DNA of 39,093 bases from assembly GCA_043742745.1 (NCBI GenBank), contig JAYTXW010000177.1, forward strand, positions 1 through 39,093, in the 5' to 3' direction. Made by a program: the position numbers and the translations under genes. Below, piece by piece: positions 632 to 34,738 of the stretch. The notes beneath the pieces were generated by a model. It was not told the DNA's origin, ran no database searches, and saw only the letters and a list, made by a program, of their open reading frames with translations. Every line of letters starts with the position of its first letter. The stretch's first letter is position 1. This DNA comes from Sphingomonadaceae bacterium. Lineage in GTDB: Bacteria; Pseudomonadota; Alphaproteobacteria; Sphingomonadales; Sphingomonadaceae.

Positions 632-3217
632 TCAGAAGTTCACTCGTGCACGCAAGCCGAATTGACGTTTGTCAGCCGCAAAGGTTGCCAACGACAGGCC
701 GCCTGCAGGTAGTGCTTGCGTATCACCACTTGATTGAGCCGATTGCACTGACTCATTGTCAAAGGTATTGTTTACGTAAAACAGCACCGTATATTTTGTA
801 TTTTCGATGCCTAGCTGAAAATTTACATTGGCATATGGGCTGTAATAGTACTGGTTCGTATTATCCTGATAGCGGCGACTACGGTATTGGACATCACCGT
901 TTGCTAGCAAATTCCAGTCACTTATCAGCGGCCGACGATAATTGAGCGATGCGACGAACGAATGACGTGCCGCGCCTTCAAGGCGGTTGCCGTCGAGGTT
1001 GACGTAGCAGCCCTTGAAGTTGCCGACCGTCTTGATCGTGCACCCGCCCGCGAGCGCGATCGTGATCGGGCTCGTCTGCGGGATGTTGAAGTCGATGTAT
1101 TTGGCGTCGAGATAGGTGTAGCCGAAGCTCAGGTTTAGGCCGCGCGTGAGTAGCGCCGCGATCTCGAGTTCGGCCCCGTCGACCCGCGCGCCGCCGATAT
1201 TCTGGATCAGGCTGACGTTACCCTGCGGATTGACCGAGAAGGGCACCGGCACGAGCGTCGATTCCTGCTTGTCCTTGTAATCCTCGCGGAAGATGGCGGC
1301 GTTGAACTGCAGCCGCCGGTCGAACAAGGTCGATTTGAAGCCCAGTTCGTAGTTGTACAGCTTTTCGGTACCGAAGGCCGCGTCTTGCGGGTTGGGCGTC
1401 TGCACCTGCGACAGGCCCGCGGGTTTGATCCCCTTCGCGAATGAGAAATAGGCGAGCAGGTTGGGATTGAACTTGTACGTCGCTGTTGCCCGCGGCGCGA
1501 AATAAGTCGTCGCCGTGCTCGCGGTAAACGCGCTGCCGACGAGGGTGAACGGGTAAATGCCGCCTACTGCCGTCTTCGAAATCGCGATGCTCTTGGCGAA
1601 CAGATAATCGTAGGTTTCACGCGCCTCGCGCCCTTCCACCGAGATCGTCAGCTTGTCGGTGATGTCGAACTCCGCGGTGGCATAGGCGGAATAGTGATGG
1701 GTGACGCGCCCCTGGTCCTGCGCCGGGCCGCGCCCGCCGAGCAGCTTGACATCATAATAGATGTTGACGGCCGTCGGCGGCGTGACGTCCGGAGCATTGA
1801 ACCCGGCGTTGGAGATGCTGCCAAGTTTCTGCTGGACATTCTCCCACCAATACAGCCCACCGACCGCCCAGCGGAAGCGATGGGCGCCCTGCTGCCCGAT
1901 CCGGAGTTCCTGACTGAACTGGCGCGTGTGCGTCGTTGCATCAAAGAAGAAGAGTCCGGTCGCGATGTTGCCGGCGGGAACCTCGGCGAGCCCGGTCGAG
2001 CCCGACTGGGTAATCGTCGTCAGCGGGCGCCCGAAGAAATCGGTGTCCTGGACGGAAGTCTGGTGGGAATCGGTGTAGCCGGTCCAAGTCGACAGCTCGA
2101 CGTCACTGAACAGGCCGATCTGAGAGCGAAGGCTGCTCAGCGAGGTCTTCGTGTGCGTCCCCGGAAAGTCGAGCCCGGTCAGCGGATCGGTCGACAGGTT
2201 AACCGTGCCGATACCTTTGCCGAGCAGACCGCGCTTGGCAAAGTAGGCAACCGAACCCAGCGTCGTCTGCGGAGCGCCGATGATGCCGACCTGCTGCCCG
2301 GCGACGTTCGCCGGCAACGCGACCGTCTCACGCTGCAAGACCTCGGGAGCCCCGCCAACATAATATTCGGCGCGCGGCTTATAGGTGTCGTCGGAGTACA
2401 TCGTCCGTGCGATGAACTTGAACCCTTCCCGCGGCTCCCATTTGGCCGCGATCGAGCCGCCTTCCGAACGGTTGCCGCCGATCCGCTTGCCAGTCACCTC
2501 GTTGTTATAAAAACCATCGAAATATGAGTAGAGACCATTGACCCGGACGGCGAGCGTGCTGGTCAGCGGCACGTTGATCGCCGCCCGCGCCTCGTAGAGG
2601 CTATAGGTGGCCGCTTCGCCGCTGACATAGCCTTCGATGCCTTTGGTCGACGGATCTTTGCTGATGTAATTGATCGCGCCGCCGAACGCGACACGACCGT
2701 AAAGCGCCGACTGCGGACCCTTGACGACTTCGATCCGTTCGAGGTCGACGAGCTTGAGGTTGGCAAGGTTGCCGCCGCCCGCCGTCGCGATCGATTCGGT
2801 CGAGATGTCGATGCCGTCGAGCAGGATCCCGACCGGCGGCCGCCCGCGCGTCGAGGGCAGTCCCCGGATGCTCGGCCGCACGTCCTGTTGGACGAAGCCC
2901 TTGTCGACGAAAAGTCCGGGAGTGTACCGCGCTACGTCGCCAACGTCGCGGATACCCTTGTTGAGGATGTTTTCGGCGGACAGGGCGGTGACCGTCAGCG
3001 GGACATTCTGCAGGCTTTCGGCCTTGCGCCGCGCGGTGACGGTGATGTCCTGGAGCTGATCGTCGGCGTCGTTCGCGGCGATCTGCGCGGGTGGCGTGTC
3101 CGTCGGCGCGGTCGCCTGTGCGAACGCAGGCGCGGCAATCATCGCCAAGGTCAGTGCGAGAAGCGACGATGCGCCGTTCAGCCGGACATTCCTGCAAAAA
3201 TCAGGTTGGTGCGTCAT
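632..3217 (-). CDS. TonB-dependent receptor
   Basis: 861 aa. Signal peptide (AAPAFA/QA), TonB-box-like DITVTARRK, plug motifs (SIRG, ERIEVVKGPQSALYG..AFGGAINYI), barrel motif E...NYELGFKS, C-terminal Phe (RVNF). Confidence 0.96.
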   Translation of the reverse strand: MTHQPDFCRNVRLNGASSLLALTLAMIAAPAFAQATAPTDTPPAQIAANDADDQLQDITVTARRKAESLQNVPLTVTALSAENILNKGIRDVGDVARYTPGLFVDKGFVQQDVRPSIRGLPSTRGRPPVGILLDGIDISTESIATAGGGNLANLKLVDLERIEVVKGPQSALYGRVAFGGAINYISKDPSTKGIEGYVSGEAATYSLYEARAAINVPLTSTLAVRVNGLYSYFDGFYNNEVTGKRIGGNRSEGGSIAAKWEPREGFKFIARTMYSDDTYKPRAEYYVGGAPEVLQRETVALPANVAGQQVGIIGAPQTTLGSVAYFAKRGLLGKGIGTVNLSTDPLTGLDFPGTHTKTSLSSLRSQIGLFSDVELSTWTGYTDSHQTSVQDTDFFGRPLTTITQSGSTGLAEVPAGNIATGLFFFDATTHTRQFSQELRIGQQGAHRFRWAVGGLYWWENVQQKLGSISNAGFNAPDVTPPTAVNIYYDVKLLGGRGPAQDQGRVTHHYSAYATAEFDITDKLTISVEGREARETYDYLFAKSIAISKTAVGGIYPFTLVGSAFTASTATTYFAPRATATYKFNPNLLAYFSFAKGIKPAGLSQVQTPNPQDAAFGTEKLYNYELGFKSTLFDRRLQFNAAIFREDYKDKQESTLVPVPFSVNPQGNVSLIQNIGGARVDGAELEIAALLTRGLNLSFGYTYLDAKYIDFNIPQTSPITIALAGGCTIKTVGNFKGCYVNLDGNRLEGAARHSFVASLNYRRPLISDWNLLANGDVQYRSRRYQDNTNQYYYSPYANVNFQLGIENTKYTVLFYVNNTFDNESVQSAQSSGDTQALPAGGLSLATFAADKRQFGLRARVNF

Positions 3218-9753: not shown

Positions 9754-10491
9754 ATGGCACAAGTCGGCAACGAGGTCGCCCTGGTAACCGGAGCCTCGGG
9801 CGGCATCGGTGGCGAGACGGCGCGGCGGTTCGCACTTGCCGGGGCACAGGTCGCCGTCCACGGCTTTCGTAACCGGGCCGGTGCCGAGCGAGTCGCAAGC
9901 GAGATTGCGGCGCTTGGCGGTACAGCGATCGTCGCGATCGGCGATGTCGGCGACGCCGCCGCGGCGACCCGAATCGCCGACGAAGTATCGGACCGGCTCG
10001 GCGGAATCGATATCCTCGTCAACGTGTCGGGTACCTCGCCGCAGATTTCGTTCGGATCGGTCACCCCGCAGTCGTTCGACGCACTGTTCCGCGACAACGT
10101 GCTCGGGACGATCCTGATGATGCAGGAATGCGCGCGGCACATGTCGGCGGGCGCGCGGATCGTAAATGTCGCGAGCAACCTGAGCTTTTCGCCGATTGCG
10201 GGCCTCGTTCCTTTTGCGGCAGCCAAGGCGGCGCTGATCACGTTGACCCAGGGTTTCGCCCGTGAGCTCGGAGCGCGCCGGATCGCCGTCAATGCCGTTG
10301 CACCGGGTGCGATTGAAACGCCGATGACCGAGTGGACACCCGATCATATTCGCGCCGGGATCGCCCAGGCGACGCCGACGGGACGGATCGGGCAGCCCGA
10401 CGATGTTGCGGATACGATCGTTTTCCTCGCGTCGCCCGCCGCGAAATGGATTAATGGACGGACCTTCATCGTCGATGGCGGCCTGGTGTGA
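9754..10491 (+). CDS. Short-chain dehydrogenase/reductase (FabG-like fold) with FxxxK in place of YxxxK
   Basis: RBS AAGGAG; TGASGGIG; VNAVAPG.IETPM; C-terminal VDGG; active-site segment PFAAAK. Confidence 0.9.
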   Translation: MAQVGNEVALVTGASGGIGGETARRFALAGAQVAVHGFRNRAGAERVASEIAALGGTAIVAIGDVGDAAAATRIADEVSDRLGGIDILVNVSGTSPQISFGSVTPQSFDALFRDNVLGTILMMQECARHMSAGARIVNVASNLSFSPIAGLVPFAAAKAALITLTQGFARELGARRIAVNAVAPGAIETPMTEWTPDHIRAGIAQATPTGRIGQPDDVADTIVFLASPAAKWINGRTFIVDGGLV

Positions 10492-10513: not shown

Positions 10514-11668
10514 ATGACCTTTCTGACTAAACTCGACGACGCACCGGCAGGGGCCGCCAGCAACCCCTTCGGCCTGTCGCAGCACGGTCGCGCCGGCATG
10601 GAAATTCTCGGGGCGATCCAACAGTTCGCCGCGACCAGTCTACGGCCGCAGGCGCGGGCCGTTTTTGAGGCCGATGCCAAGGCGCAGGCGCTGTCTGCCG
10701 AACACGCGGTCGACATGGCCGGGGTCGGCGGGCGCGAGCGCATCGCCGCGGCGCGGGCGATCGCCGATCGCAGCCCGATATTTCGCTTTGAGCGCTTTCT
10801 GCAGCGCTGGGTCGCGGAGGAGAATTTCAACACCGGCATCCCGGCGATCGAAGAGCGCCGGGCGCAGTTCGAGCGCTTTATGGCGCAGCCGATCGCGACG
10901 CCGGCCGGCGGAACACTCGACCTCCCCAATATAGAGTTGCCGAAATATTATAGCCGGGAATGGCATCTCGAGCCGGGCGGCTGGGACGGCTGGGACCTGT
11001 ACGGACCTCTGTTCGCGTTCGCGGTCGGCCCGATGGTGTTTAGCAAGGGAGGCTATGCCGCGGTCGGCGTTGGCGACGACATCACCCGGCAGCGGATTCA
11101 GGCGGTTCAGCAGTTTCCCAAATCGAGTTATCGCCGGGTCTATGAACCGGGGTGCGGCGGCGCGACGACGTTCAAGGCGATTCATACCGTCTTTCCCGAG
11201 GCCGAATTGGTCGGCTGCGATCTGTCGCCGCTACTACTGACCAATGGTCACAAGATGGCCGAACGTCAGGGCATTCCCGTCCACCTCAAGCAGCGCGACG
11301 CCACCTCGACCGGCGAGCCCGACGCGAGCTTCGATGCTGTCATCACCTACGCACTACATCACGAACTGCCGCCCAAGGAAAATGCGGCGATGTTCCGCGA
11401 GATGTATCGCATCCTCGAGCCTGGCGGGGATATCGTCCTGTCCGACCCGCCGCCGTTCCGCGCGGTCGACCTGTTCCACGCCGTCATCCTCGACTGGGAT
11501 ACCGACAATCGCGAGGAACCCTTTTTCTCGACGATGCTGCATACCAGCCTCGACAACCAACTGCGCGAAGCCGGTTTCGTCAATGTCGAATCCTATCCGC
11601 TCGGGCAGGGCCAGTATCCGTGGATCACCCGTGCGTCTAAGCCGGTCGCGCGGGAGCTGGCGGCGTGA
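10514..11668 (+). CDS. Class I SAM-dependent methyltransferase-fold protein A
   Basis: ATG 10514 after AAGGAG; motif I-like YEPGCGG, GCDLS, DASFDAV, HHELP, RILEPGG. Confidence 0.9.
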   Translation: MTFLTKLDDAPAGAASNPFGLSQHGRAGMEILGAIQQFAATSLRPQARAVFEADAKAQALSAEHAVDMAGVGGRERIAAARAIADRSPIFRFERFLQRWVAEENFNTGIPAIEERRAQFERFMAQPIATPAGGTLDLPNIELPKYYSREWHLEPGGWDGWDLYGPLFAFAVGPMVFSKGGYAAVGVGDDITRQRIQAVQQFPKSSYRRVYEPGCGGATTFKAIHTVFPEAELVGCDLSPLLLTNGHKMAERQGIPVHLKQRDATSTGEPDASFDAVITYALHHELPPKENAAMFREMYRILEPGGDIVLSDPPPFRAVDLFHAVILDWDTDNREEPFFSTMLHTSLDNQLREAGFVNVESYPLGQGQYPWITRASKPVARELAA

Positions 11669-11964
11669 CCGACGCGACGATGCCGCCCGAAAGCATTGAC
11701 GACGTCGCGAGGATCGTCATGGCGCTCGTCCAGGAGGTGTGGATCATGCGCGACCGGATGGCGGTGACAGAGCGGCTGCTCGCCGCGCGAACGGGCATCA
11801 CCGCCGCTGATATCGACGATTATGTCGGCGACGCGGGCTTCAAGACCGATATCGAAAAGCTGCGCGACCGCTTCACCGCCAAAGTGATCGGAGCTCCGTT
11901 GGCAGCGCGTGAACGGAGCGTCGAGCAGATCCTGACCCGCGCCGGGCTGTTGTCGCCCGCTTGA
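11665..11964 (+). CDS. Small helical hypothetical protein, partner of methyltransferase A
   Basis: GTGA overlap with the methyltransferase stop; clear paralogue of 11971-12234. Confidence 0.8.
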   Translation: MTDATMPPESIDDVARIVMALVQEVWIMRDRMAVTERLLAARTGITAADIDDYVGDAGFKTDIEKLRDRFTAKVIGAPLAARERSVEQILTRAGLLSPA

Positions 11965-11970
11965 AGAAAA

Positions 11971-12234
11971 TCACCGGACTCCGCTGAGCGCCCGCGACAC
12001 CGCCGCAACCAGTCGGTCACGGCGGGCGTCTAGTTCGGCTTGGCGGGCAGCGTCGGGTTCGAAGCCATCGATTTCGGCGGCGGCGTCGATACCGTGCCGA
12101 GCGAGGATCGTTTCCAGAACAAGCTGGCGATCGGCGACCACCCACAGTTCGCGGGCGAGCGCGACGACGGCGTCGGCAACATTGTCGATCTGATCGGTAC
12201 CGAAGAGCCGGCGTGGCGGCGTATGATCACTCAA
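11971..12234 (-). CDS. Small helical hypothetical protein, partner of methyltransferase B
   Basis: TTG at 12234 overlaps the TGA of methyltransferase B; IDNVADAVVALARELWVVADR..LE aligns with IDDVARIVMALVQEVWIMRDR..TE. Confidence 0.8.
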   Translation of the reverse strand: MSDHTPPRRLFGTDQIDNVADAVVALARELWVVADRQLVLETILARHGIDAAAEIDGFEPDAARQAELDARRDRLVAAVSRALSGVR

Positions 12235-13283
12235 TCGCCCAACCCCGACCTGCGGCCATAAACCAGATACGGGTTGCCGGTCGGTCCGACGCCCTCGGCA
12301 CGGACGTCGACAAATCCCGCATCGCGCGCGCCCTCGGCGAAGTCGATCATTGCCGCCGTGCGCCAGAACGGCTCGCCGCCCCATTTCGCCGCCCAATCTA
12401 CGCGCCACGCGCTTAAACGGTCGAGGTCGGCATAACGCGGAACGTCGACCATCAGCAGGTCCCCGCCCGGCTCGAGCAGCCGGAACGCTTCGGCGAACCA
12501 TGCGGCGATGATCTTCGGCGGCAGCTCGTGATGAATCGCGTAGGAAGTCACGAGATCGAAACTGGCGTCGTCGAAGCCCGTATCTTCGCCCGCCGCGACG
12601 ACCAGATCCCAGCTATGCCCCAGCTCATTGCCGACGCGGCGGGCCTGCTCGAGCATCCGCCGCGACAGGTCGACGCCGCTTATACGGGCGTCGGGAAATC
12701 GCTCGGCGAGCGCGACGGTGTAGTGCCCGCTCGACGTTCCCAGTTCGAGGATTCGTTTATGATCGTGACGAGGCAAAGCATCGAGGACACGGCGTCGCTG
12801 GCTGTAGATGTCGCCTGGAAAAATGCGCGACACATAGCGTTTGTGGACCAGCTCGCCGTGAATGAAGCCATTATACTCCGACGCGTCCCAACCGCCGGTC
12901 GTGCGGTGAAACCAGATCTCCGACCAGTAGCGCGGCGAAACGAATCCCGGCCGCTCGCGGAGCGTCGTCCCGCCGTCGTCGAGCCACGCGAGTTCCGGAG
13001 CGATCCGATCCTTGATCTCGGCGAACGCTTCTTCGCACATCATACCATGTTCCTTGGCGCCCCACTCGCCGAGCAATTCCCGAGTGCGGTACGGAGCGTG
13101 GTCCGCAAGCGTCGCGTCGATCAGCGCGTGGCGCGCGTCCATGTCGTCGGGCAGGGTTTCCGCTGTTACGCCACGGCTGGCGAGCAGCGCCTCTGCATCG
13201 CGCTGAAGGTGGCCAGCTTCGAGCCGGACGCCGACCTCGAAATCGATCAGCGCGCGCCCGCGCTGGGCAAGCTGAACATTCAT
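12231..13283 (-). CDS. Class I SAM-dependent methyltransferase-fold protein B
   Basis: Start reassigned to ATG 13283 (ATGA overlap with MFS stop); LELGTSSG, GVDLS, DASFDLV, HHELPP, RLLEPGG. Confidence 0.9.
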   Translation of the reverse strand: MNVQLAQRGRALIDFEVGVRLEAGHLQRDAEALLASRGVTAETLPDDMDARHALIDATLADHAPYRTRELLGEWGAKEHGMMCEEAFAEIKDRIAPELAWLDDGGTTLRERPGFVSPRYWSEIWFHRTTGGWDASEYNGFIHGELVHKRYVSRIFPGDIYSQRRRVLDALPRHDHKRILELGTSSGHYTVALAERFPDARISGVDLSRRMLEQARRVGNELGHSWDLVVAAGEDTGFDDASFDLVTSYAIHHELPPKIIAAWFAEAFRLLEPGGDLLMVDVPRYADLDRLSAWRVDWAAKWGGEPFWRTAAMIDFAEGARDAGFVDVRAEGVGPTGNPYLVYGRRSGLGD

Positions 13284-16771: not shown

Positions 16772-17944
16772 TCAGTTGGGCGCCACGCTAGGCGCAGTGG
16801 TGAGGACGACGATTGCGGCGATGAGCGATATGCCGGCGCCAATGAAGACAGCGCCATAGCCGGCATGATCGGCAAATAATCCGAAGATCGGCCCCGACAC
16901 GCCGAGCGCGATGTCAAAAAAAGCCGAGAAGCCGCCGATCACGGCGCCACGATTGGCGGGCGGCAAACGCCCCAGCAATTCGACACCAAGGGCCGGATAG
17001 ACCATCGAGAAGCCAAATCCCCCCAGCAGCGCGCCGAGGGCGACGATTGCCGGCGACAGCGCCACGACGATCAATCCTTGCCCCACCGCCGCAACCAGAA
17101 GCGAAAGCAGCGCAACTCGCCGGCCCCCAAAGCGCGCCGGAAGATCGGCAAGAAACAGACGGACCAGCACGTAACCGCTGCCAAACGCGGCAAGAGCCCA
17201 TGCCTCGCCGCTCCAGCCGAGCGCGGTATAGCGCAGGCCAAGAAACGCCAGCAACGTAGCATAGGGAATTGCCGCGAGCGTGAGCACCGTGCCGAACCGT
17301 GCGATTGCCAGCACGACACGGTAAAAGGGCAGACGGGTCCCGCCCGGTGAGGTCGCCGCTGAAAGGGGAAGCGCGATCAAGATGGCGAGCAGCGGCGCCA
17401 CCGTCGCCAGCGCCGCGACCGTCGCGAAGCCGCTCGAATGATGGAGCGCCAAACAAAGCGGCGCGCCGAGGCTTATTGAACCGAACATCGCGAGGCCCTG
17501 CCACGCAATAACCCGTCCGCTCTGCGTCGCCCCTAACCGCGCGATGCACCAGCTCACGGCGCCGGTCAGGAACAGGCTTTCGCCGATACCGAGCAGGATG
17601 CGCCCTCCCATCAGGATCGCGAGGCCGGTGCGGTGATCGGCGGCGATCGCCGCCCACATACTCGCCACTCCGGAGATCACACACAGCGGCAGGCCGAGGA
17701 GCACGGCGCTGCGGGGGCCGCGCCGATCGCTCAATCCGCCAGCATATTGACGGGTCGTGATCGTCGCTAGGGACTGTATACTGACGGCGCAGCCGGCAGT
17801 CGTACTGAACGACCAATCCTGCCGGACAAGGAGCGGAATCACCGGCAGCATCGTGCTGATGGCCAGAAAGCCAAGGAAGACGATCGCCGTTACCGGTACC
17901 AGCCGTCGCCACTGGCCTTCCAATGCAGGCGCGGCGCCGGTCAC
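16772..17944 (-). CDS. MFS transporter (YhhS/YfcJ-like)
   Basis: Multiple hydrophobic segments; GGLSDRRGPR motif A; GRILLGIGES; RGAVIGGFSAFFDIA; GTG start overlaps the upstream stop. Confidence 0.88.
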   Translation of the reverse strand: MTGAAPALEGQWRRLVPVTAIVFLGFLAISTMLPVIPLLVRQDWSFSTTAGCAVSIQSLATITTRQYAGGLSDRRGPRSAVLLGLPLCVISGVASMWAAIAADHRTGLAILMGGRILLGIGESLFLTGAVSWCIARLGATQSGRVIAWQGLAMFGSISLGAPLCLALHHSSGFATVAALATVAPLLAILIALPLSAATSPGGTRLPFYRVVLAIARFGTVLTLAAIPYATLLAFLGLRYTALGWSGEAWALAAFGSGYVLVRLFLADLPARFGGRRVALLSLLVAAVGQGLIVVALSPAIVALGALLGGFGFSMVYPALGVELLGRLPPANRGAVIGGFSAFFDIALGVSGPIFGLFADHAGYGAVFIGAGISLIAAIVVLTTAPSVAPN

Positions 17945-19134
17945 GTGATCGCGGCTGCTTCGCGCAGGCTGGTGATCATCGACTGGCGGAGCAGATACGC
18001 GCGCCGCTTTTCGGCATCGTTGGCCAGCATCGTCATCGTAGCTCGCTGCCACTTATGCGCCTCGCTCTGTCCCGCCCGCATCAATTGCATGTTTTGCATC
18101 GTCTGCTGCTGGATGAAGTCGTGCGTCACGGTCCGCCGCTGGCGATCATATCGATCGAGAAGTACCGGATCTGCACCGTCCTTGAAAACCTCGACGAGCT
18201 TCTCGCACAGGCTGAACGCGTCGTGGATGCCGCTGTTCATGCCGAATCCGCCGAGCGGATTGTTGAGATGCGCGGCATCGCCCATCAGAAAAATCCGTCC
18301 GATTTGGAACTGCTTTGCGACGCGCTGATGGACGCGATAAATTGTTCGGTGCGCGGTTTCCACCGCCGCACCGTCACCGGTCAGCCGGTCGAACACCTCG
18401 TTCTTCTTAGCGTCGGAGCGCAGATCGACCGACGCATCGTCAGCTGGGACCAATACCCGCCATAACGTTGGTACGCGGAGTAAAACTAGCCATTCGTCCG
18501 GGTCTGATACGTAGTTTACGAGCGCTAGCCCCGGCAGGTAGTCCTCGAGTGGAACCCGGGTAGTTAGGCAAAGAAATTTTTCCGGATAGGTAAAGCCATC
18601 GAAGCCTATCCCCAGCCATTTACGGACAATCGACGACGCGCCATCGGCGCCGATTACGTAATCCGCGCGCACGCGACGAATCTCGGTTGGAGTCTCCAGC
18701 GACACCAAAACGCCGGTATCGTCCTGCGCGATGTGCGCGACCCGGTGTCTGAACAGGACTTCGGCACCGGGTAGCGATGCGAGCCCGTCGGCCAGCATCC
18801 GCGCGAGATGATATTGTTCGCACTGAAGGCGAAACGGGTATCGCACGATATCGGCCAGTTCGCCCATGTCGAACGCGACGATCTCGCCGCTCCGGCGGTC
18901 GCGCCAGTGATAAATCGGTGCCTTCAGCCCTGTTTCGATCAAGCGGTCGGTGATGCCAAGGGTGTCGAGCATCTCAAGCGTCGGCGCGTGGAAGGTCGAC
19001 GCCCGCATATCCTGCGCGCAGTCGGCACCGGCTTCGACCAGCATGACGTCGATCCCATGCTGGGCAAGATACGTCGCCGCCACGCAGCCGACCGGCCCAG
19101 CGCCGGCGATCAAAACCTGCACCCGGTCGCTCAT
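17941..19134 (-). CDS. FAD-dependent monooxygenase (group A, MhpA/PheA-like)
   Basis: IAGAGPVG, VIGADGASSIVR, GDAAH..NPLGGFGMNSGIHDA, YD..RR. Alternative GTG start at 19146. Confidence 0.93.
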   Translation of the reverse strand: MSDRVQVLIAGAGPVGCVAATYLAQHGIDVMLVEAGADCAQDMRASTFHAPTLEMLDTLGITDRLIETGLKAPIYHWRDRRSGEIVAFDMGELADIVRYPFRLQCEQYHLARMLADGLASLPGAEVLFRHRVAHIAQDDTGVLVSLETPTEIRRVRADYVIGADGASSIVRKWLGIGFDGFTYPEKFLCLTTRVPLEDYLPGLALVNYVSDPDEWLVLLRVPTLWRVLVPADDASVDLRSDAKKNEVFDRLTGDGAAVETAHRTIYRVHQRVAKQFQIGRIFLMGDAAHLNNPLGGFGMNSGIHDAFSLCEKLVEVFKDGADPVLLDRYDRQRRTVTHDFIQQQTMQNMQLMRAGQSEAHKWQRATMTMLANDAEKRRAYLLRQSMITSLREAAAIT

Positions 19135-19255
19135 GCCTCGCACCACATGTGAGTTCGCCCCCGCAAGTTTCGCGTCGGCGCTAAGGTGATTGGCGTCGGG
19201 CGGCGACGGACTGATCCGGTTTATCCGCTGGACGAGTACGTCGCGCAGTCCCGCG

Positions 19256-20002
19256 TCAGAACGCCGCCATCAGCCGGCCAAATCCGTCCTTGCGGTCAGC
19301 GATACCGTTGCTGCGCAGCGCGTTCCAATACGTCGCGGCGTTGATAGCGATCACCGGCTTGCCGAGGAAAACCTCGGCGGCGGCGGCGAAGCGAACCATC
19401 GACAGGTTGGTGCCGACCTGGACGATCGCGTCGACATCGTCGCCGTCGAGCGCGAGCACCGTCTCCCGCAGCGTTGTCGAGGGGACCTCAGCGATCGCCG
19501 TCCAGCTGGGACAGCGCAGCGCGGTGTCGCGGACCACTTCGACGCCGTAATCGCTCATAAAGTTGGTGACTTCACGGTTCGCCACGGGGAAATAAGGCGA
19601 CAGCAGCGCGACCTTGCGAATGCCGCCATAAGCGTTGAACGCCGCGATCAGCGACTGCGCACCGGTACAGAGGCCGACGCCGGCGATCTCCTCGACCGCC
19701 TGCGACCATTGTGCCGATCCAGCGGCGCCGCCGTAGAAGGTCACCGCGGACATCCCCATCACGAGAAAATCAGGGCGGCACGTCATCACCCCGCGCACCG
19801 CGTCATGCGTCGCTGCGCTGATCTTCAAGGTGCCAGCCATGAAGCTTTCATCGGACAACGCCGGGGCGTCGTCGACGATGATCCGGCTGTAGTGATTCGT
19901 CACGCCGCTAACGCGCAGGTCGTCGAAGTCAGGCTGCACGACGGTATTGGTCGACGGCCCGAGAACTCCAAATTTCTTGCGCCACCCCAGTACGTCACCC
20001 AT
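19256..20002 (-). CDS. Asp/Glu racemase superfamily (maleate isomerase/arylmalonate decarboxylase-like), lacking both catalytic Cys
   Basis: GVLGPSTNTVV, ALLSPY, GTNL, GKPVIAIN.A..W..LR. The Cys positions read GMSA and VGTN. Confidence 0.87.
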   Translation of the reverse strand: MGDVLGWRKKFGVLGPSTNTVVQPDFDDLRVSGVTNHYSRIIVDDAPALSDESFMAGTLKISAATHDAVRGVMTCRPDFLVMGMSAVTFYGGAAGSAQWSQAVEEIAGVGLCTGAQSLIAAFNAYGGIRKVALLSPYFPVANREVTNFMSDYGVEVVRDTALRCPSWTAIAEVPSTTLRETVLALDGDDVDAIVQVGTNLSMVRFAAAAEVFLGKPVIAINAATYWNALRSNGIADRKDGFGRLMAAF

Positions 20003-20633
20003 CGCGATCGGCCTTGGTTAAGAGGGCGATGGCCTCATTCTCGCTGACGACCTCCGCCATCTTGGCTGCCATATCGAATAGATTCTGTTCGTGCGGCCGA
20101 ACATCGCGGTCGCCGCAGGCCTCGCGAACGACGAATGGTGCAAAACCGTGGCACAGGGCGTCGAGCGCGGTGGCACGGACGCAGCCCGACGTCGAAAAGC
20201 CGGTGATCAACAGTGTATCGAAGCCCGCGGCGTGAAGAGTCGAGGCGAGTGAGGTGCCGAAGAAGGCCGACGGATATTGCTTGCTGACGACGAGATCGGC
20301 GGCCTGCGGCTGAAGCGTCGGCGGGAAATCGCCTGCAGGAGAGCCGCCGACAAAGGCCTTGAGTGCGGGAACCTTGCGGAAGAACATGCCGCCGTCGCGC
20401 CCTCCTGGCGCATAGACGACATTTGTAAATGTCACTGGGACGCCCGCGCGCCGCGCCGCCGCCACCAGCCGCACGTTCGATGCGAGCACATCCTCGACGC
20501 CGGCGTATAGCGGCGACGCAGGGTCGAGATAGGCCATCACGACGTCGACGATCAGCAACGCTGGCTTCGGTCCGAAAGCGAGCCGTCCGCCGAAGCCGGC
20601 CGCAGCGTAGTCGGCTGCCAGGTCACCTTCCAT
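19995..20633 (-). CDS. Isochorismatase-family cysteine amidase (maleamate amidohydrolase/N-carbamoylsarcosine amidase-like)
   Basis: Asp-Lys-Cys triad motifs IVDV, SKQYPSAFFGT, STSGCVRAT. Confidence 0.93.
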   Translation of the reverse strand: MEGDLAADYAAAGFGGRLAFGPKPALLIVDVVMAYLDPASPLYAGVEDVLASNVRLVAAARRAGVPVTFTNVVYAPGGRDGGMFFRKVPALKAFVGGSPAGDFPPTLQPQAADLVVSKQYPSAFFGTSLASTLHAAGFDTLLITGFSTSGCVRATALDALCHGFAPFVVREACGDRDVRPHEQNLFDMAAKMAEVVSENEAIALLTKADRDG

Positions 20634-21483
20634 GGCGATCCCCCCAGGCGATCAAGGCGTCGGCGCCCGTAATGTGATTCATCGTCGCTAGGTCGGCCAG
20701 TTGTAGACCGCGAGAGGTGGCGTGCCCGTGCAAATGCTGCAGCCAGTGCGGAGCGGCCGCGACGAAGCCGTGCATCAAGAGGAGCGGGTGCAGGGCGATT
20801 GTAAAGCCAAGACGGTCGAGTTCGGCACCATCTTCGGTCGGCGTAACCCCGCCTTCGACCAAATTGTGGACGAGGGGGACACGGCCGGCGAAGCGCTGGG
20901 CGACGGCGATAAGCTCGCTCATCGTCCGCGGCCCCTCGACAAAGATCAGGTCGGCGCCAGCTTTGAGATATTCCTCCGCTCGGTCGAGGGCAGCAGCGAT
21001 CCCGTCTATGGCAACGGCATCGGTCCGCGCGACGATCAGCATCTCCAACCGGGTGTCGACCGCCGCGCTGATGCGGCCTACCGCCTCGGCGACCGGCACG
21101 ATCGTCTTGCCGGCCATGTGACCGCAGCGCTTGGGGTACCCCTGATCTTCGATCTGGATCGCGCTGGCGCCGGCACGTTCGAAGCTTCGCACCGTTCGTG
21201 CCAACGTCAGGGCGTTACCGAAGCCGGTATCGCCATCGACGATCAGCGGGATCGCAACGCGGTCACGGATTACCGCCACCGTTTCGGCGACCTCGCTCGC
21301 GGTAATCAGACCAATGTCTGGTCGACCAAACCGTCCCATCGCCAGCCCGCCACCGGTGAGGAAGGCGGCGGGGAATCCGGCCTGCTCGATTAGCAATGCC
21401 GTCAGACCATCCCAGCACCCTGGTACCGACACGAGCCGTCGTTCACCCAGTAGAGCGACCAGGGCGGCGACATGGCAGTGCAT
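20623..21483 (-). CDS. Isocitrate lyase/PEP mutase-family C-C lyase (2,3-dimethylmalate/methylisocitrate lyase-like)
   Basis: VDGDTGFG, IQIEDQ..PKRCGH, VARTDA, IFVEG; start at ATG 21483 (TGATG coupling). Confidence 0.92.
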   Translation of the reverse strand: MHCHVAALVALLGERRLVSVPGCWDGLTALLIEQAGFPAAFLTGGGLAMGRFGRPDIGLITASEVAETVAVIRDRVAIPLIVDGDTGFGNALTLARTVRSFERAGASAIQIEDQGYPKRCGHMAGKTIVPVAEAVGRISAAVDTRLEMLIVARTDAVAIDGIAAALDRAEEYLKAGADLIFVEGPRTMSELIAVAQRFAGRVPLVHNLVEGGVTPTEDGAELDRLGFTIALHPLLLMHGFVAAAPHWLQHLHGHATSRGLQLADLATMNHITGADALIAWGDRHGR

Positions 21484-22400
21484 CAGCCTTCCAGTTGACC
21501 GGGGATATGGCTCTCGTGATTGGCCAGATACCAGTCCGCGATCTCCTCCCGCGTGGTCCACCAGACACGGGGCGTCGACTTAGCATGTTCGATAAATTCA
21601 CGGAGGGCGCGGATTCGATGCGCCCGGCCGGAAACGTGCGGGTGCAGGCCAACGTTCATGATCCGCCCGGTCGTCGCTCCCTCAGCATAGAGCACGTCGA
21701 ATTCCTCGATCAGTGCATCCCGAAACTGGTCTGTCGTGAAATTCTTGCGGGTTATAAACGTGAAGTCATTGATTTCGTTTGAGTACGGCACGGATACAAT
21801 TGGTCCGTGCGCGGTCCGCAGCAGGTATGGCTGATCGTCGTTCATGATGTCGCAGTAAAAGGTCGCCCCCTGCTCGGCGAGAATATCAGCGGTCTGCAGG
21901 GTGCCGCGCAGTGAAGACGATAGCCAACCCTTTGACTTACGACCCGTGAAACGTTCGAACTGTGCGAGCGTCCGGAGCACGACCTCGCGCTCCTTGTCCG
22001 GATCATGGGCAAAGTCGGTCAGCAATTCGCCCTGTTCCCAGTTATGCGCCATCAATTCCCAGCCGCGCTCGAGCACCGCGTCGGTCATTGCCTTGCGGCG
22101 CTCGAAGGTCACAGCGTTGGTCGTGCAGGACGCCGCGACCCCGAGCTGGTCGAACAGCTCGATCAGTCGCCAGATGCCGACGCGCTGGCCGTATTCACGC
22201 CAGCTATAATTAGGAAAGTCAGGTGTGTTGCCCGGCAGAATGTCGGGGAGGATCGCCGGTCCACCGGCATAATAGGGCTTCGTCGTGTCCTTGGTCAGGT
22301 CCCACGTCTCGAGATTGAAGGTCAGGATCAGCGCGAGCTGGTTACCGTCGGGCCAGCGCAGAGGCTGGCGGTCAGGCAACGCGACGTAGGAATATTCCAT
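21483..22400 (-). CDS. Polysaccharide-deacetylase-fold protein, PuuE (allantoinase)-like, copy 1
   Basis: LRWPDG, FNLE, REYGQRVG.WR, AHNW, NDDQPY, VPYS.EIND, LHPHVSG; ATG 22400 after GGAG. Confidence 0.9.
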   Translation of the reverse strand: MEYSYVALPDRQPLRWPDGNQLALILTFNLETWDLTKDTTKPYYAGGPAILPDILPGNTPDFPNYSWREYGQRVGIWRLIELFDQLGVAASCTTNAVTFERRKAMTDAVLERGWELMAHNWEQGELLTDFAHDPDKEREVVLRTLAQFERFTGRKSKGWLSSSLRGTLQTADILAEQGATFYCDIMNDDQPYLLRTAHGPIVSVPYSNEINDFTFITRKNFTTDQFRDALIEEFDVLYAEGATTGRIMNVGLHPHVSGRAHRIRALREFIEHAKSTPRVWWTTREEIADWYLANHESHIPGQLEG

Positions 22401-22494
22401 GCGAGCTCCAATCATCGCGCCGACCGTGAAGCAGCGCAATCAGGTAACTACCTGCAATGGCACAGCGCGGATGGCGCGTGCGTTCATTTAATTC

Positions 22495-22507
22495 TCCGTC
22501 AGCCGGA
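22495..22507. promoter_or_regulatory. Candidate IclR-type operator TCCG-N5-CGGA
   Basis: Palindromic arms TCCG-TCAGC-CGGA between the IclR gene and the downstream operon; degenerate copies occur in other intergenic regions. Confidence 0.45.
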
Positions 22508-22533
22508 CACGCGCCGGTTGTGACCTGCAACCA

Positions 22534-23310
22534 CTATTTGAATTCCGCGCGGATCGCGGCGGCGGTGGCGGTAAGCGGCTCGACGAACTGCCCGATCGCG
22601 TGGCTCATCTTGGTCGTCGATGCGAAGAAAGCGAGAGTCAGTGCGCCGAGGACCGTGCCGGCGCCGCTCAGAATCGGCACCGCGATCGACGAAGTCTTGC
22701 CCGGATTATTCGTAAACTGGTTGAATCCACGGGTCGCATAACCGTCGCGACGGATATCGTCGATCAACGACTCGTTCTCGATCAGGTTAAGGACATGAAT
22801 GTTCGCACGCCGGGGCAGCAGCTTCAACGCTCGGATAAGTTCAATCCGCTCGTCCTCGGAGATATTGGCGACATAGGTGAGCCCCGCAGCGCATTCTAGA
22901 ATTGGGAGCGTGAAGCCCGGGTGATAATGGCTGAAGGTCAGTGTCGTCAGCGCGTGCGTCGAATCGCGGATCACCATCGAATGTCCGACATAGGTCGATA
23001 GCGAGATCGGCCAGCCGACGCGACGGGTCAGGTCGACAATGTGCGGTCGCGACACCTGGACTAGCTGCGCATCACCCTGGAAGCCATGCGCCAGTGCCTG
23101 CACCAGTGCTGTCGGACGGTAACGTTTCCGCGAGGGTTCGCGTTCGACCAGGCCTTCGTGCAGCAGCGTCTGGACGATCCGGCACGCGGTCGGGTACGGC
23201 ACTTCGGACGAGCGGGCGATTTCCATCATCGACAGAGCGCTGCCCCGATTAACCGCTTGCAGCACCGCGAGGCCACGCGACAGCGATCGGATCGGTACGC
23301 CTTTTTCCAT
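22534..23310 (-). CDS. IclR-family transcriptional regulator (MhpR-like)
   Basis: N-terminal HTH IRSLSRGLAVL...TACRIVQTL...G.V; C-terminal IR..GYA...SIAVPI. Confidence 0.93.
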   Translation of the reverse strand: MEKGVPIRSLSRGLAVLQAVNRGSALSMMEIARSSEVPYPTACRIVQTLLHEGLVEREPSRKRYRPTALVQALAHGFQGDAQLVQVSRPHIVDLTRRVGWPISLSTYVGHSMVIRDSTHALTTLTFSHYHPGFTLPILECAAGLTYVANISEDERIELIRALKLLPRRANIHVLNLIENESLIDDIRRDGYATRGFNQFTNNPGKTSSIAVPILSGAGTVLGALTLAFFASTTKMSHAIGQFVEPLTATAAAIRAEFK

Positions 23311-23391
23311 CTCAGCTGGAAAGCCTTCTCCGCATTTTCAAGATTTTATTAACCCTATCTAGGCTCAAGTCGAGCATCATATCGCGGTGCA

Positions 23392-24309
23392 TCATGACCC
23401 CGCAATCGCATCGATCACGCCACCCGCCGACGAGATCCATGCACCGCGCTGCCTGAGTCCTTCGACCAGGTTCTCGAAGCCGCCGATCCGATGTGGCAAG
23501 GCGATGATATAAGGTGTCAGATGGAGCGGGAGCATCCGGCGCCCATAGCGCCGGGCTTCGACCTCAAGCCAATCGAACGCGTCCCGGACTTGGGTTGCAT
23601 AACTGTCAGTCGACTGCTGCTGGACAGCGATGATCTGCCGGTCGGATAATTCGTGATTCAGCGGCAGGTTGATGATCGATCCGACGGGGGTCGTCATCGC
23701 ATAGGGCAGGTCGTCGTTTACCCAGTCGAGCATGTAGGTCACCCCGGCTTCTACCAGAAGCGAAGGGGTTGCAAAGCTCTGCGATCGGGCGATCGACAGC
23801 CATCCCCGCGGGCGCGTTCCGGTCGTTCGTTCTAGCGTGTCGAGTGAGGCGAGGATCAGCGCCCGCTCGTCGGCTTCGGCTAGTCCGGTGGCGATCGTCC
23901 CATTCATGTCGGTCGAATGGGCAACAATCTCGTGCCCGGCCGCGACGATATCGCGAAGCAGCGCCGGGTACCGATCGGCGATGGCCGCGTTGACGGCGAC
24001 CGAGATTGTCACGCCGTTTTTCGCGAAAGTGTCGAGCAGCCGATAGATGCCGACGCGCGTGCCATACTCGCGCGAGGTGTAATGTCGATAGTCGGGGTAG
24101 GCGGTCTGCATGTGGCTGGGCGCGCGGAATGGGTGGTCCACGGCGACGATCGGAAACCATTCGAGGCTGACGACGATCGGCACCGCCACCAGAGGCCCGC
24201 CGGGCCACGCGCCTGGCGCCCGCTCGAACAGGTTCGACCAGGCGTATAGGTCGTGATCCATGCCCCGGCGGCGACGGGGATATTCCAGATAGGCTGCGCC
24301 GAGTGCCAT
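23392..24309 (-). CDS. Polysaccharide-deacetylase-fold protein, PuuE-like, copy 2 (degenerate His motif)
   Basis: REYGTRVG, AHS, NDDLPY, LTPY; ATG 24309 coupled (TGATG) to copy 3. Confidence 0.88.
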   Translation of the reverse strand: MALGAAYLEYPRRRRGMDHDLYAWSNLFERAPGAWPGGPLVAVPIVVSLEWFPIVAVDHPFRAPSHMQTAYPDYRHYTSREYGTRVGIYRLLDTFAKNGVTISVAVNAAIADRYPALLRDIVAAGHEIVAHSTDMNGTIATGLAEADERALILASLDTLERTTGTRPRGWLSIARSQSFATPSLLVEAGVTYMLDWVNDDLPYAMTTPVGSIINLPLNHELSDRQIIAVQQQSTDSYATQVRDAFDWLEVEARRYGRRMLPLHLTPYIIALPHRIGGFENLVEGLRQRGAWISSAGGVIDAIAGS

Positions 24310-25226
24310 CACGCCCGCTTCGCGATGTCGGCGACAACCTGGTCGTAGCTGTTGGCGAGAAAATGATCGGCAATGTCGCCGCTGCGGGTAATCCACGCGC
24401 GTCCGTCGGCAGCGATGTGACGAAGCACCTCTTCGAACGCGCCGATCCGGTGCGGCTGGCCGATAAGATAACTGTGTAGCGGGATGCACATCACAGTGCC
24501 CGACCGCTCGCCCTCGACCGCAAGCCGGTCGAACTGGCGGATCAGCGTCTCGGCATATTCGCGGGGACTCATATTATACACGAAGAACCCATAATGATCG
24601 TTGACCTCGAGACTATACGGCATCGAGATCAAGCGACCGCTAGCGACCGCGACCGGCGAAGGCTGATCGTCATGGTACAGATCGCAAGTATAGCTGAGGC
24701 CGTATTCGGCGATCAAATCGAGGGTGCGGGTCGTATGGGTCAGCGCGGGGGCAAGCCAGCCCTTGATCGTCTGGCCGGTAGCGGAGCGAACCGTGCGGAT
24801 TGCGTCTTCGATAATCGCGCGTTCCTGCGCCTCGTCCATGCCGTAGCTGTAGCGGGTGTTGTAGATGCCGTGGCTGAAGAACTCCCAGCCGCGGGCGCTG
24901 GCGTCCTCGATCACCTCAGGAATATGATCGCACAACGCCACCGACAGGCTGACCGAGCCGGAGAAGCCGTGCTTGCTCATAACGTCGGCCATCCGCCAGT
25001 GGCCGACGCGGTTGGCGTAATCGCGGTGGCTGTAGCCGACAACGTCGGGATGGGGCTTCGACCAGCTCTTACGGAAGGGGTTTGCGGGCGGGTCAATTTC
25101 GTAGAATTCGAGGTTGGGCGAGACCCATACGGCGACCGTTTTGCCGCCCGGCCAGGCGATTTTCGTCCGGTCGCGGTATGGCCAGAAATCGTAAAGTCCG
25201 GGGTCGTCGTCTCCTTCACGCATCAT
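24309..25226 (-). CDS. Polysaccharide-deacetylase-fold protein, PuuE-like, copy 3
   Basis: WPGGK, PNLE, RDYANRVG.WR, SHG, HDDQP, MPYSLEVND, LHSYLIGQPHR. Confidence 0.9.
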   Translation of the reverse strand: MMREGDDDPGLYDFWPYRDRTKIAWPGGKTVAVWVSPNLEFYEIDPPANPFRKSWSKPHPDVVGYSHRDYANRVGHWRMADVMSKHGFSGSVSLSVALCDHIPEVIEDASARGWEFFSHGIYNTRYSYGMDEAQERAIIEDAIRTVRSATGQTIKGWLAPALTHTTRTLDLIAEYGLSYTCDLYHDDQPSPVAVASGRLISMPYSLEVNDHYGFFVYNMSPREYAETLIRQFDRLAVEGERSGTVMCIPLHSYLIGQPHRIGAFEEVLRHIAADGRAWITRSGDIADHFLANSYDQVVADIAKRA

Positions 25227-25905
25227 AGGCTTCCAGCCAGTCGATTACGACCTGCACCGGCTCGACATCGGCGTACTTTAATTGCAGGTCGGTCAGGTTG
25301 GCGTAATGGTAACTCTCGTGCTTGTCAGCGGTCGTTTCGATCGGAACGATCGTCCGGTATCCCCGGCTCAGCGACTCGACGGCGGTCGCGCGCACACAGC
25401 CCGACGTCGAGCCGCCGGTGACAACCACGGTGTCGATACGATGCCAGACGAGCAGGCTCTGCAGGGGTGTCTCGAAGAACGCCGACGGCATGCGCTTATT
25501 GTAGATGACGTCGACGGACGGATCGATCACGCAACGCTCGTCGAAATCGTGCCGGCGCGACCCGTATTTGATGTTCTGCAGCGAGTCCGGCGTGTTGGTA
25601 CGCGTGCCCCATACGCCGGCATCGGCGGCGTTGCCGGAATAGGCGACATGGGTCCAGACGACCGGTAGGCCCTTATCGCGAGCCAGGCGCGAGATTCGAT
25701 TGACGTATTCGATCTGATTCGGGTCGGTCTCGTACGCGGTCTTGAACTCGTCTACCCTTGTATAGGCGTTCTGGAAATCGACATTGATGATCGCCAGTCG
25801 ACTGCCGAAACCGAATTTGCTGCGTGCCGGGTTCGACATGACCTCGTTGAAGATCTGTTTCGCAGTCTTGCCGTCGGACACCATTTTCGTGCCTGCAATC
25901 GCCAT
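25216..25905 (-). CDS. Isochorismatase-family cysteine amidase, copy 2
   Basis: NVDFQ, NKRMPSAFFET, STSGCVRATAV, KYADV. Confidence 0.93.
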   Translation of the reverse strand: MAIAGTKMVSDGKTAKQIFNEVMSNPARSKFGFGSRLAIINVDFQNAYTRVDEFKTAYETDPNQIEYVNRISRLARDKGLPVVWTHVAYSGNAADAGVWGTRTNTPDSLQNIKYGSRRHDFDERCVIDPSVDVIYNKRMPSAFFETPLQSLLVWHRIDTVVVTGGSTSGCVRATAVESLSRGYRTIVPIETTADKHESYHYANLTDLQLKYADVEPVQVVIDWLEAYDA

Positions 25906-25917
25906 CTTGGCTCGCCC

Positions 25918-26853: not shown

Positions 26854-26872
26854 CGTCGAACCTCGCTTGGCT

Positions 26873-26898
26873 TAATTGCATTAACTCTATAACAATTG
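26873..26898. promoter_or_regulatory. Candidate GntR operator (AATTG-N14-CAATT) in the divergent lyase/CoA-transferase promoter
   Basis: TAATTG-cattaactctataa-CAATTG; same arms and spacing as 28884-28909. Confidence 0.6.
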
Positions 26899-26925
26899 GT
26901 TCGTGATCGCAATCTGGAGAAACCG

Positions 26926-28071: not shown

Positions 28072-28074
28072 AGC

Positions 28075-28842: not shown

Positions 28843-28882
28843 CGATAATGATTGGCGTAATTTTCGCTGGCCGCCAACCGGT

Positions 28883-28910
28883 CTAATTGGTATATAAATA
28901 GTCCAATTAG
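28883..28910. promoter_or_regulatory. Candidate GntR operator, inverted repeat CTAATTGG-N12-CCAATTAG
   Basis: Perfect 8-bp arms in the AT-rich gntR/leuC-like divergent promoter, adjoining the RBS. Confidence 0.7.
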
Positions 28911-28919
28911 GAGTAGGCC

Positions 28920-34519: not shown

Positions 34520-34738
34520 GACCAACTCCAAAATCTCCGATAAGCCGGCATAATGCGGACGGATCGTCACGCCGCCTAAGAGTCCTACCATAAGCATGGC
34601 AGCCCGCATTCACCCAATTCTTGGTCCGGACCTATCCGACCACCGGTCAAACGAACGTCGCGTACTTCGCAATTTTCCGGGATGCGGCAGATTGCCCGCA
34701 TCACGGCGCTCTAACATGAGTGGAGCAAGCATGGGACG

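What the first reader, a model, noticed from the sequence alone, without database searches (positions are those of the whole stretch)
10514..13283. Mirror-image duplicated module: methyltransferase plus small unknown partner, twice, tail to tail
Seen: MTase A and small A on the + strand meet small B and MTase B on the - strand, with only 6 bp between the stops. Each small gene overlaps its MTase stop (GTGA, TTGA). The MTases are paralogues (LSQHGRA/LAQRGRA; PKYYSREWH..PGGWD/PRYWSEIWFH..TGGWD; DASFD; HHELPP; LEPGGD; EPF). The 87 and 99 aa proteins are also paralogues (ID.VA..V.AL..E.W...DR..V.E..LA......A.ID....DA........RDR....V). Motif I is non-canonical in both (YEPGCGGA, LELGTSSG). Inference: retaining the pairing through a diverged duplication implies an obligate two-subunit enzyme, with the small protein as activator or scaffold. 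Methyltransferase folds inside a degradative cluster are unusual and may perform methyl transfer/detoxification or non-methylating SAM-dependent chemistry.
Basis: partly seen in the sequence, partly recalled or inferred. Interest (0 to 1): 0.8.

Follow-up and report, generated by a model that had tools for sequence, protein, structure and literature searches.

The report
Methyltransferase-fold enzyme with its own partner
Two distantly related methyltransferase-fold genes, each glued to a small helical protein of an unnamed family, are two members of a widespread gene pair whose halves occur in the same bacterial genomes and usually in equal numbers; the small protein is likely a dedicated subunit of an enzyme that likely helps break down nitrogen-containing ring compounds, and the mirror-image layout is incidental.

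Summary
In detail: MT-A (384 aa) plus smA (99 aa) on +, smB (87 aa) plus MT-B (350 aa) on -, 6 bp apart, paralogues at 33% and 41%. It is not a local duplication. A and B are old clades found together in tandem, divergent and separated layouts; no other locus examined has this exact layout. A third pair lies elsewhere in the genome. The small protein has no Pfam, NCBIfam or clear fold match, yet its family spans 1,343 clusters. In three genome samples (301, 301, 151) every genome with a clear small-protein gene had the full-length enzyme, copy numbers usually matched, and the two trees mirror each other (rho 0.85). Against a strict one-to-one pair: some genomes hold far more enzymes than partners (38 vs 6). 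SAM-binding residues are kept family-wide, so motif I is only mildly odd. An invariant His/His-Glu/Glu set could bind metal but is shared with a partner-less sister family. Neighbours suggest catabolism of an imported N-heterocycle through substituted maleamate/maleate. Binding, reaction and substrate are untested.

The parts
10514..11668 (+). MT-A, 384 aa class I SAM-dependent methyltransferase fold with a ~130 aa helical N-terminal extension (clade A)
10964..10966 (+). His151 codon of MT-A, invariant in 103 of 103 family members
11138..11164 (+). motif I of MT-A (residues 209-217, VYEPGCGGA); E211 and G213 match the family's conserved acidic residue and Gly
11360..11365 (+). His283-Glu284, invariant 103 of 103; aligns with the His-His of BelI; candidate metal or base site (inferred)
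11516..11518 (+). Glu335 of the EPF motif (E/D in 101 of 103)
11665..11964 (+). smA, 99 aa all-helical partner protein (clade A), start overlaps MT-A stop (GTGA)
11965..11970 (.). 6 bp gap between convergent stops; no terminator-like site found there
11971..12234 (-). smB, 87 aa partner protein (clade B), start overlaps MT-B stop (TTGA)
12231..13283 (-). MT-B, 350 aa paralogue (clade B)
9754..10491 (+). SDR oxidoreductase, 22 bp upstream of MT-A; with MT-A and smA it forms a + strand block inside a mostly - strand island; SDR-MT-A-smA order also in L017-L019
13280..14731 (-). GPH-family MFS transporter overlapping the MT-B start; present in 13 of 24 A/B loci
632..3217 (-). TonB-dependent receptor of the island; present in 14 of 24 A/B loci
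17941..32292 (.). Downstream catabolic block: FAD monooxygenase, Asp/Glu racemase, 2 isochorismatase-family, ICL/PEP-mutase, 3 PuuE-like hydrolases, HMGL-like lyase, CoA-transferase III, LeuC/LeuD-like pair, FAD_binding_2 flavoprotein

Best explanation
The four genes are two old paralogous copies (clades A and B) of a widespread pair made of a class I methyltransferase-fold protein and a small all-helical protein, and the small protein likely binds the enzyme as a structural or assembly subunit in a SAM- and likely metal-dependent step that likely prepares an imported nitrogen heterocycle for breakdown. Shown: fold, kept SAM-binding residues, invariant H151/H283/E284/E335, joint occurrence, matched copy number, mirrored trees, catabolic neighbours. 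Inferred: (1) the partner's long, unusually hydrophobic helix (residues 9-41) packs into an oligomer with the enzyme's family-specific N-terminal helices; (2) a partner can serve more than one paralogue in expanded genomes; (3) MT-A and MT-B act on two steps or two substrates of one pathway (TonB or ABC import, esterases, MT steps, flavin monooxygenase, PuuE-like ring opening, maleamate amidase, maleate isomerase or LeuCD-type hydratase, CoA-transfer and lyase to pyruvate). Methyl transfer is my slightly preferred reaction (about 50% vs 40% non-methylating). The tail-to-tail layout likely comes from rearrangement of the SDR-MT-A-smA block.
For: Class sample, 301 genomes: 17 had the small protein at E<=1.8e-7 and the same 17 had the full-length enzyme; one more genome had a C-terminal half at a contig edge; two had only weak small-protein hits. 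Phylum sample, 301: the same 6 genomes with equal copies, plus 6 weak small-protein hits (E 9e-5 to 9e-4) without enzyme. Order sample, 151: the same 19 genomes, copies equal in 16; a broader profile found divergent partners beside the extra enzyme in 2 more. Five further genomes: 2/2, 2/2, 6/6, 2/2, 4/4, including non-adjacent pairs. 35 of 55 small genes in five rich genomes lie within 400 bp of an enzyme gene, against 0.47 expected. Mirror trees for 74 adjacent pairs: rho 0.85 (max of 999 permutations 0.14); within genomes G051 0.75 and G208 0.81 (p about 0.003), G210 and G216 not significant. Small-protein model is an open four-helix chain (pLDDT 93) whose first helix is hydrophobic at most positions. 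A sister enzyme family has a different N-terminus and no partner: 0 of 10 loci; 23 genomes carry only it. Neighbour census.
Against: Enzymes outnumber partners in expanded genomes (G216 38/6, G208 29/19, G051 21/17), and a broader profile found no partner in the flanks of any of the 15 G216 regions fetched. 13 of 55 small genes had no enzyme gene within 10 kb on the same contig; 8 of 39 metagenome loci lacked an enzyme in the fetched flank. Adjacent genes are inherited together, so mirrored trees do not show contact. Candidates scored per genome were capped (6-34), so absences are 'not found in those searched', and kin are not independent. No substrate-specific marker was found.
Confidence: 0.6

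Rival explanations
1. A non-methylating SAM-dependent enzyme: SAM is a cofactor or group donor and an H151/H283/E284/E335 metal site does oxidative, decarboxylative or ring-opening chemistry on N-heterocycles (as RquA and RdmB do in other pathways); the small protein is its second subunit.
For: The family sits in catabolic islands and is expanded to 20-40 copies in 3-5 Mb genomes, where spending SAM per substrate seems costly (inference). The second Gly of motif I is kept in only 54 of 103. RquA is among the top NCBIfam hits, far below cut-off (42 vs 175 bits). PMC9814641 (abstract, passages) shows a methyltransferase homologue doing Mn-dependent amino transfer.
Against: Acidic SAM contacts are kept. 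H283/E284 align with the metal-binding His-His of BelI, a true O-methyltransferase (PMC11408123 passages). The same residues are in the partner-less sister family.
Confidence: 0.3
2. Strict obligate one-to-one heterodimer: each enzyme works only with its own cognate small protein.
For: Copy numbers are equal in 18 of 19, 6 of 6 and 5 of 5 genomes. Clade A partners sit beside clade A enzymes and B beside B in every layout.
Against: G216 has 38 enzymes and 6 partners; G064, G327 and G263 also have enzymes with no partner nearby.
Confidence: 0.25
3. The small protein works in the same pathway but not as a subunit: for example a substrate or intermediate carrier, a methyl acceptor on its invariant Glu, or a regulator.
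For: Invariant charged residues E24, R31, E36 (344, 354 and 356 of 359). Some small genes sit beside transporters, SDRs or hydrolases rather than the enzyme.
Against: The tree of the small protein follows the enzyme's paralogue identity rather than genome or island. No pocket-forming globular core in the model.
Confidence: 0.2
4. Ordinary detoxifying methyltransferases with a hitch-hiking small ORF that is co-inherited only because it is adjacent.
For: Adjacency alone gives mirrored trees; the cassette travels on plasmids.
Against: Equal copy numbers persist when the genes are separated by kilobases or inverted (L020, L022, L026, Actinomadura). No genome with a clear small-protein gene lacked the enzyme in three samples.
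Confidence: 0.05

Closest known systems
Trm112-methyltransferase holoenzymes (PMC6144793, abstract and outline read; PDB 6f5z among the fold hits)
   Same: A small protein that activates class I methyltransferases and can serve several of them; the Hvo_0019 methyltransferase chain is tied among the top MT-A fold hits (Z 16.3, rmsd 2.8, 199 aligned).
   Different: The partner here is predicted all-helical, has no Trm112 Pfam match, is encoded next to its enzyme, co-duplicates with it, and lies in catabolic rather than translation contexts.
BelI/CysG metal-dependent O-methyltransferases (PMC11408123, passages read)
   Same: Class I fold (Foldseek E about 2e-10); H283-E284 align with BelI's His-His.
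   Different: His-Glu instead of His-His, an extra invariant His151, a ~130 aa helical N-terminal extension and a partner gene; catabolic islands rather than biosynthesis.
RquA (PMC9814641, abstract and passages read)
   Same: UbiE-like fold with partly degenerate motif I; weak NCBIfam hit covering the C-terminal region.
   Different: 42 and 36 bits against a cut-off of 175; different length and context; no partner was mentioned in the passages I read.
Partner-less sister family of Alphaproteobacteria (PxYYxQxFH motif; unnamed, seen here in L254-L263)
   Same: Shares H151, HE and EP(F/Y) (10 of 10).
   Different: Its N-terminus shows no profile match to this family's (hhalign probability 0.15%); one match per genome; no small gene in 10 of 10 flanks.
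MbtH-like proteins (recalled, not from a call)
   Same: A small accessory gene in the cluster, needed for an enzyme family and shared in trans among paralogues.
   Different: Different sequence family (no Pfam match); serves NRPS adenylation domains.

Membership tests
Class I SAM-dependent methyltransferases | Seven-stranded Rossmann-like methyltransferase fold | tested here: met
   Pfam Methyltransf_25 above cut-off; model pLDDT 93; top Z 16.5, rmsd 3.2, 209 aligned
Class I SAM-dependent methyltransferases | Motif I acidic residue and Gly, and acidic ribose-binding residue after strand 2 | tested here: met
   D/E211 99 of 103, G213 103 of 103, D/E236 103 of 103; MT-A lacks the last Gly and MT-B the middle Gly of GxGxG
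Class I SAM-dependent methyltransferases | Transfers a methyl group from SAM | not testable with these tools
   needs an assay
Trm112 activators | Trm112 sequence family | tested here: not met
   No Pfam family for smA, smB or smC; not among the 25 families listed (of 78) for 149 members
Trm112 activators | Trm112 fold | tested here: inconclusive
   Model is four helices; best fold hits Z<=6.1, generic helices
Trm112 activators | Binds and activates the methyltransferase | not testable with these tools
   needs pull-down and assay
RquA (NF038261) | Score above the equivalog cut-off | tested here: not met
   42.2 and 35.5 bits vs 175
BelI/CysG HHD methyltransferases | His-His-Asp metal motif | tested here: inconclusive
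MbtH-like proteins | MbtH Pfam family and NRPS neighbourhood | tested here: not met
   No Pfam match; no NRPS among the annotated neighbour families
Nitrile hydratase alpha N-terminal arm | Sequence homology beyond the RxxxLExxLxxxG motif | tested here: inconclusive
   23-residue match, per-domain E 6.3, inflated by a duplicated target; TIGR01323 in 3 of 149 members, best E 0.03

The most novel reading that the evidence does not exclude
An undescribed two-subunit, SAM- and metal-dependent enzyme family that does not methylate but opens or activates nitrogen heterocycles (possibly pyrrole or tetrapyrrole breakdown products) for catabolism. It is built from a methyltransferase fold plus a new helical subunit and is expanded to 20-40 paralogues in some Proteobacteria as a substrate-scavenging repertoire.
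Probability: 0.2. Interest if true: 0.85.

Novelty: new variant of a known kind. Interest (0 to 1): 0.58.

Why it matters
The small protein defines a family of 1,343 clusters with no name, domain model or clear fold match, tied genome for genome to an enzyme family annotated only as 'class I SAM-dependent methyltransferase'. If it is a subunit, anyone expressing these enzymes alone would get inactive protein, and bacteria would have a dedicated partner system for small-molecule methyltransferase folds, comparable to Trm112 or MbtH. The enzyme family reaches 38-41 copies in 3-4 Mb genomes inside uncharacterised catabolic islands, which points to an unrecognised route for turning over N-heterocyclic organic matter. 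Minimal two-pair islands in cultured Actinomadura, Novosphingobium and Brevundimonas strains make this testable.

Tried and rejected
Complex prediction, MT-A + smA 1:1 with alignments: no answer (0.23, 0.36, 0.23; mark 0.32; controls not folded); no other stoichiometry or non-cognate pair could be run. Inter-protein covariation on 162 pairs (effective 130): top z 5.9, no higher than three shuffles (5.8-8.2), underpowered. Fusion search among 259-2000 aa proteins: none in 7,993 candidates, weak evidence; the 150 best library hits are 75-182 aa. Fold search of smA: no Foldseek hit at E<=0.001, best Z 6.1. ESM Atlas gave no answer for smA or a homologue. My recalled link to chlorophyll/bilin catabolism through red chlorophyll catabolite reductase was rejected: PF06405 in 1 of 151 genomes (1 of the 19 pair-bearing ones) and 0 of 5 rich genomes. 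DUF1838 is enriched (15 of 19 pair-bearing vs 13 of 132 other genomes) but has no known function. Homology of the small protein to the enzyme's own N-terminus or to the sister family's N-terminus: none (hhalign about 0.1%). The nitrile hydratase alpha match is too weak. The first mirror-tree run paired window MT-A with smB by a script bug; one search fixed it and dropped 2 pairs sharing one partner. The IQ-TREE run did not finish, so trees are FastTree, midpoint-rooted. No RNA holder listed. The smB scan of metagenome contigs confirmed nothing. No promoter-like site found. Literature: 10 searches listed no paper on this family or pair; pJE1 returned 0 papers; two TomTYG65 papers were seen as listings only. 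No supplements were read, and most subscription journals are not searched. Earlier scan findings: none.

Full report
Observation. The four ORFs, overlaps and the 6 bp gap are as described. MT-A and MT-B are 33% identical (E 6e-41) and smA and smB 41% (E 5e-14). Both large proteins are class I methyltransferase-fold proteins by Pfam, model and fold search. Residues before about 100 were barely covered by the structural hits. The small proteins match no Pfam family. The junction is carried intact by single contigs in two runs that may be the source of this DNA.

Not a local duplication. The genome (2.1 Mb, 80% complete) has a third pair, MT-C plus smC, on contig C262 beside a nitrilase, MFS, TonB receptor, PuuE-like hydrolases, isochorismatase, LeuCD-like pair, HMGL-like lyase and CoA-transferase. 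A tree of 103 enzymes puts MT-A and MT-B in separate clades that each span several families. In 23 named genome loci the A and B pairs occur in tandem (L021, L024, L025), divergent (L014), 7 kb apart (L016), mixed (L026) or interleaved with ABC genes in Actinomadura and kin. None of these, and none of 41 metagenome loci, has the window's exact tail-to-tail layout. For 10 loci showing only an A pair, a full-length MT-B orthologue (46-50%) lay elsewhere in 6 genomes. In the window SDR-MT-A-smA is a + strand block in a mostly - strand island, so rearrangement explains the mirror image (inference).

The small protein is a large unnamed family. A profile search found 1,343 clusters at E<=0.001; the best 150 are 75-182 aa. 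Sources call them hypothetical. The model is four helices with pLDDT 93. Over 359 sequences E24, R31 and E36 are nearly invariant (344, 354, 356), and most positions of the first helix are hydrophobic, which suggests it is buried in an oligomer (inference).

Coupling to the enzyme. In 301 genomes of the class, 17 had the small protein at E<=1.8e-7 and the same 17 had the full-length enzyme. G082 had a half enzyme at a contig edge without partner, G076 and G230 had weak partner hits without enzyme, and 23 genomes had only a sister family. In 301 genomes of the phylum the same 6 genomes carried both with equal copies, and 6 weak partner hits had no enzyme. In 151 genomes of the order the same 19 carried both. 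Copies were equal in 16, and in 18 once a broader profile found divergent partners in G664 and G722, the latter split over two frames. Five more genomes gave 2/2, 2/2, 6/6, 2/2 and 4/4, even where the genes are not adjacent. The samples share G000, scored candidates were capped at 6-34 per genome, and kin are not independent. In five rich genomes 35 of 55 partner genes lie within 400 bp of an enzyme gene (0.47 expected). Trees of 74 adjacent pairs correlate at rho 0.85 (permutation maximum 0.14), and at 0.75 and 0.81 among paralogues within G051 and G208; G210 and G216 were not significant. Adjacent genes co-duplicate, so this shows lasting linkage, not contact.

Against a strict pair. G216 has 38 enzymes and 6 partners, G208 29 and 19, G051 21 and 17; only 36 of 105 enzymes there have a partner within 400 bp, and 13 of 55 partners have no enzyme within 10 kb on their contig. 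A broader profile found no hidden partner in any of the 15 G216 regions fetched. Either partners are shared in trans, as Trm112 is (PMC6144793, abstract) and as I recall for MbtH-like proteins, or some paralogues no longer need one.

The enzyme. Among 103 members, motif I keeps its acidic residue (99) and first Gly (103), and the ribose-binding acidic residue is kept in all 103, so SAM binding is likely; the middle Gly is kept in 54. H151, H283 and E284 are invariant and position 335 is E or D in 101. H283-E284 align with the His-His of BelI, part of a Ca-binding His-His-Asp motif in true O-methyltransferases (PMC11408123, passages). RquA, which transfers an amino group with Mn (PMC9814641, abstract and passages), is a sub-cut-off hit. 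A sister family shares these residues in 10 of 10 sequences but has an N-terminus with no profile match to this family's and no partner nearby. So the partner likely does not supply catalytic residues and more likely goes with the family-specific N-terminal helices (inference).

Pathway. Of 24 A/B loci (the window plus L013-L035), 14 have a TonB receptor, 13 a GPH transporter, 12 an FAD_binding_2 flavoprotein, 11 an alpha/beta hydrolase, 10 an FAD monooxygenase, 9 an isochorismatase-family enzyme, 8 an ICL/PEP-mutase, 8 an SBP5 binding protein, 7 PuuE-like hydrolases and 6 a LeuCD-like pair (my own gene calls, flanks of unequal length). From known nicotinate and citramalate chemistry (recalled), cyclic amide hydrolase, maleamate amidase, maleate isomerase, hydratase, CoA-transferase and lyases would funnel a substituted N-heterocycle to pyruvate. 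I put that substrate class at about 50% and a tetrapyrrole-derived substrate at about 15%, since the reductase marker I expected was absent. Related cassettes are on Sphingomonas and Sphingobium plasmids.

Verdict. A real, ancient and widespread enzyme-plus-partner module. The mirror image is incidental, strict one-to-one obligacy is contradicted in expanded genomes, and binding, reaction and substrate are untested. Ten literature searches listed nothing on it. New variant of a known kind; interest 0.58.

Noticed in passing
L001:13914-15457 (G000:C262): Third enzyme-partner pair (MT-C, smC, ATGA overlap) in a second island with nitrilase, CitE-like lyase, two PuuE-like hydrolases and a DUF1838 gene 15 kb away; orthologous pairs in four genomes of the same genus or family (L003-L006).
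   Followed up: yes
G216, G348, G208, G051: The enzyme family is expanded to 38, at least 41, 29 and 21 copies in 2.8-5 Mb genomes, an unusual expansion for a methyltransferase-fold family.
   Followed up: partly
window 8260-9621: 453 aa protein with three Rid (YjgF/YER057c) domains in tandem; also in L015 and L019.
   Followed up: no
window 15739-16758: 339 aa protein with no Pfam match, repeat-like sequence and a weak beta-1,2-mannobiose phosphorylase hit (E 0.001), perhaps a five-bladed propeller hydrolase; also in L013 and L016.
   Followed up: no
window 3507-3971, 34055-34597, 35905-36369: Three SnoaL/DUF4440-like paralogues; one often sits next to the TonB receptor in A/B loci (8 of 24).
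   Followed up: no
window 34739-35785: DUF3089 protein, recurring next to the B pair in 6 of 24 A/B loci.
   Followed up: no
L254-L263: Partner-less sister methyltransferase family of Alphaproteobacteria with the same His/His-Glu/Glu residues and a different N-terminus; no curated family above cut-off.
   Followed up: partly
L088 and L089: In G051 and G208 an orphan small gene follows mobA-mobB, an MFS-clustered gene and a 4Fe-4S gene, with no enzyme gene nearby.
   Followed up: no
L229:14947-16535 and L230:19947-21531: Similar MT-C-like plus partner cassettes on plasmids pJE1 (Sphingomonas sp. JE1) and pTomTYG65b (Sphingobium); on pJE1 with HapK-like, PrpD-like, hydantoinase and flavoprotein genes.
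   Followed up: partly
L248:2187-2511 (G722): Divergent small gene split over two reading frames beside a convergent enzyme gene; may be frameshifted.
   Followed up: no
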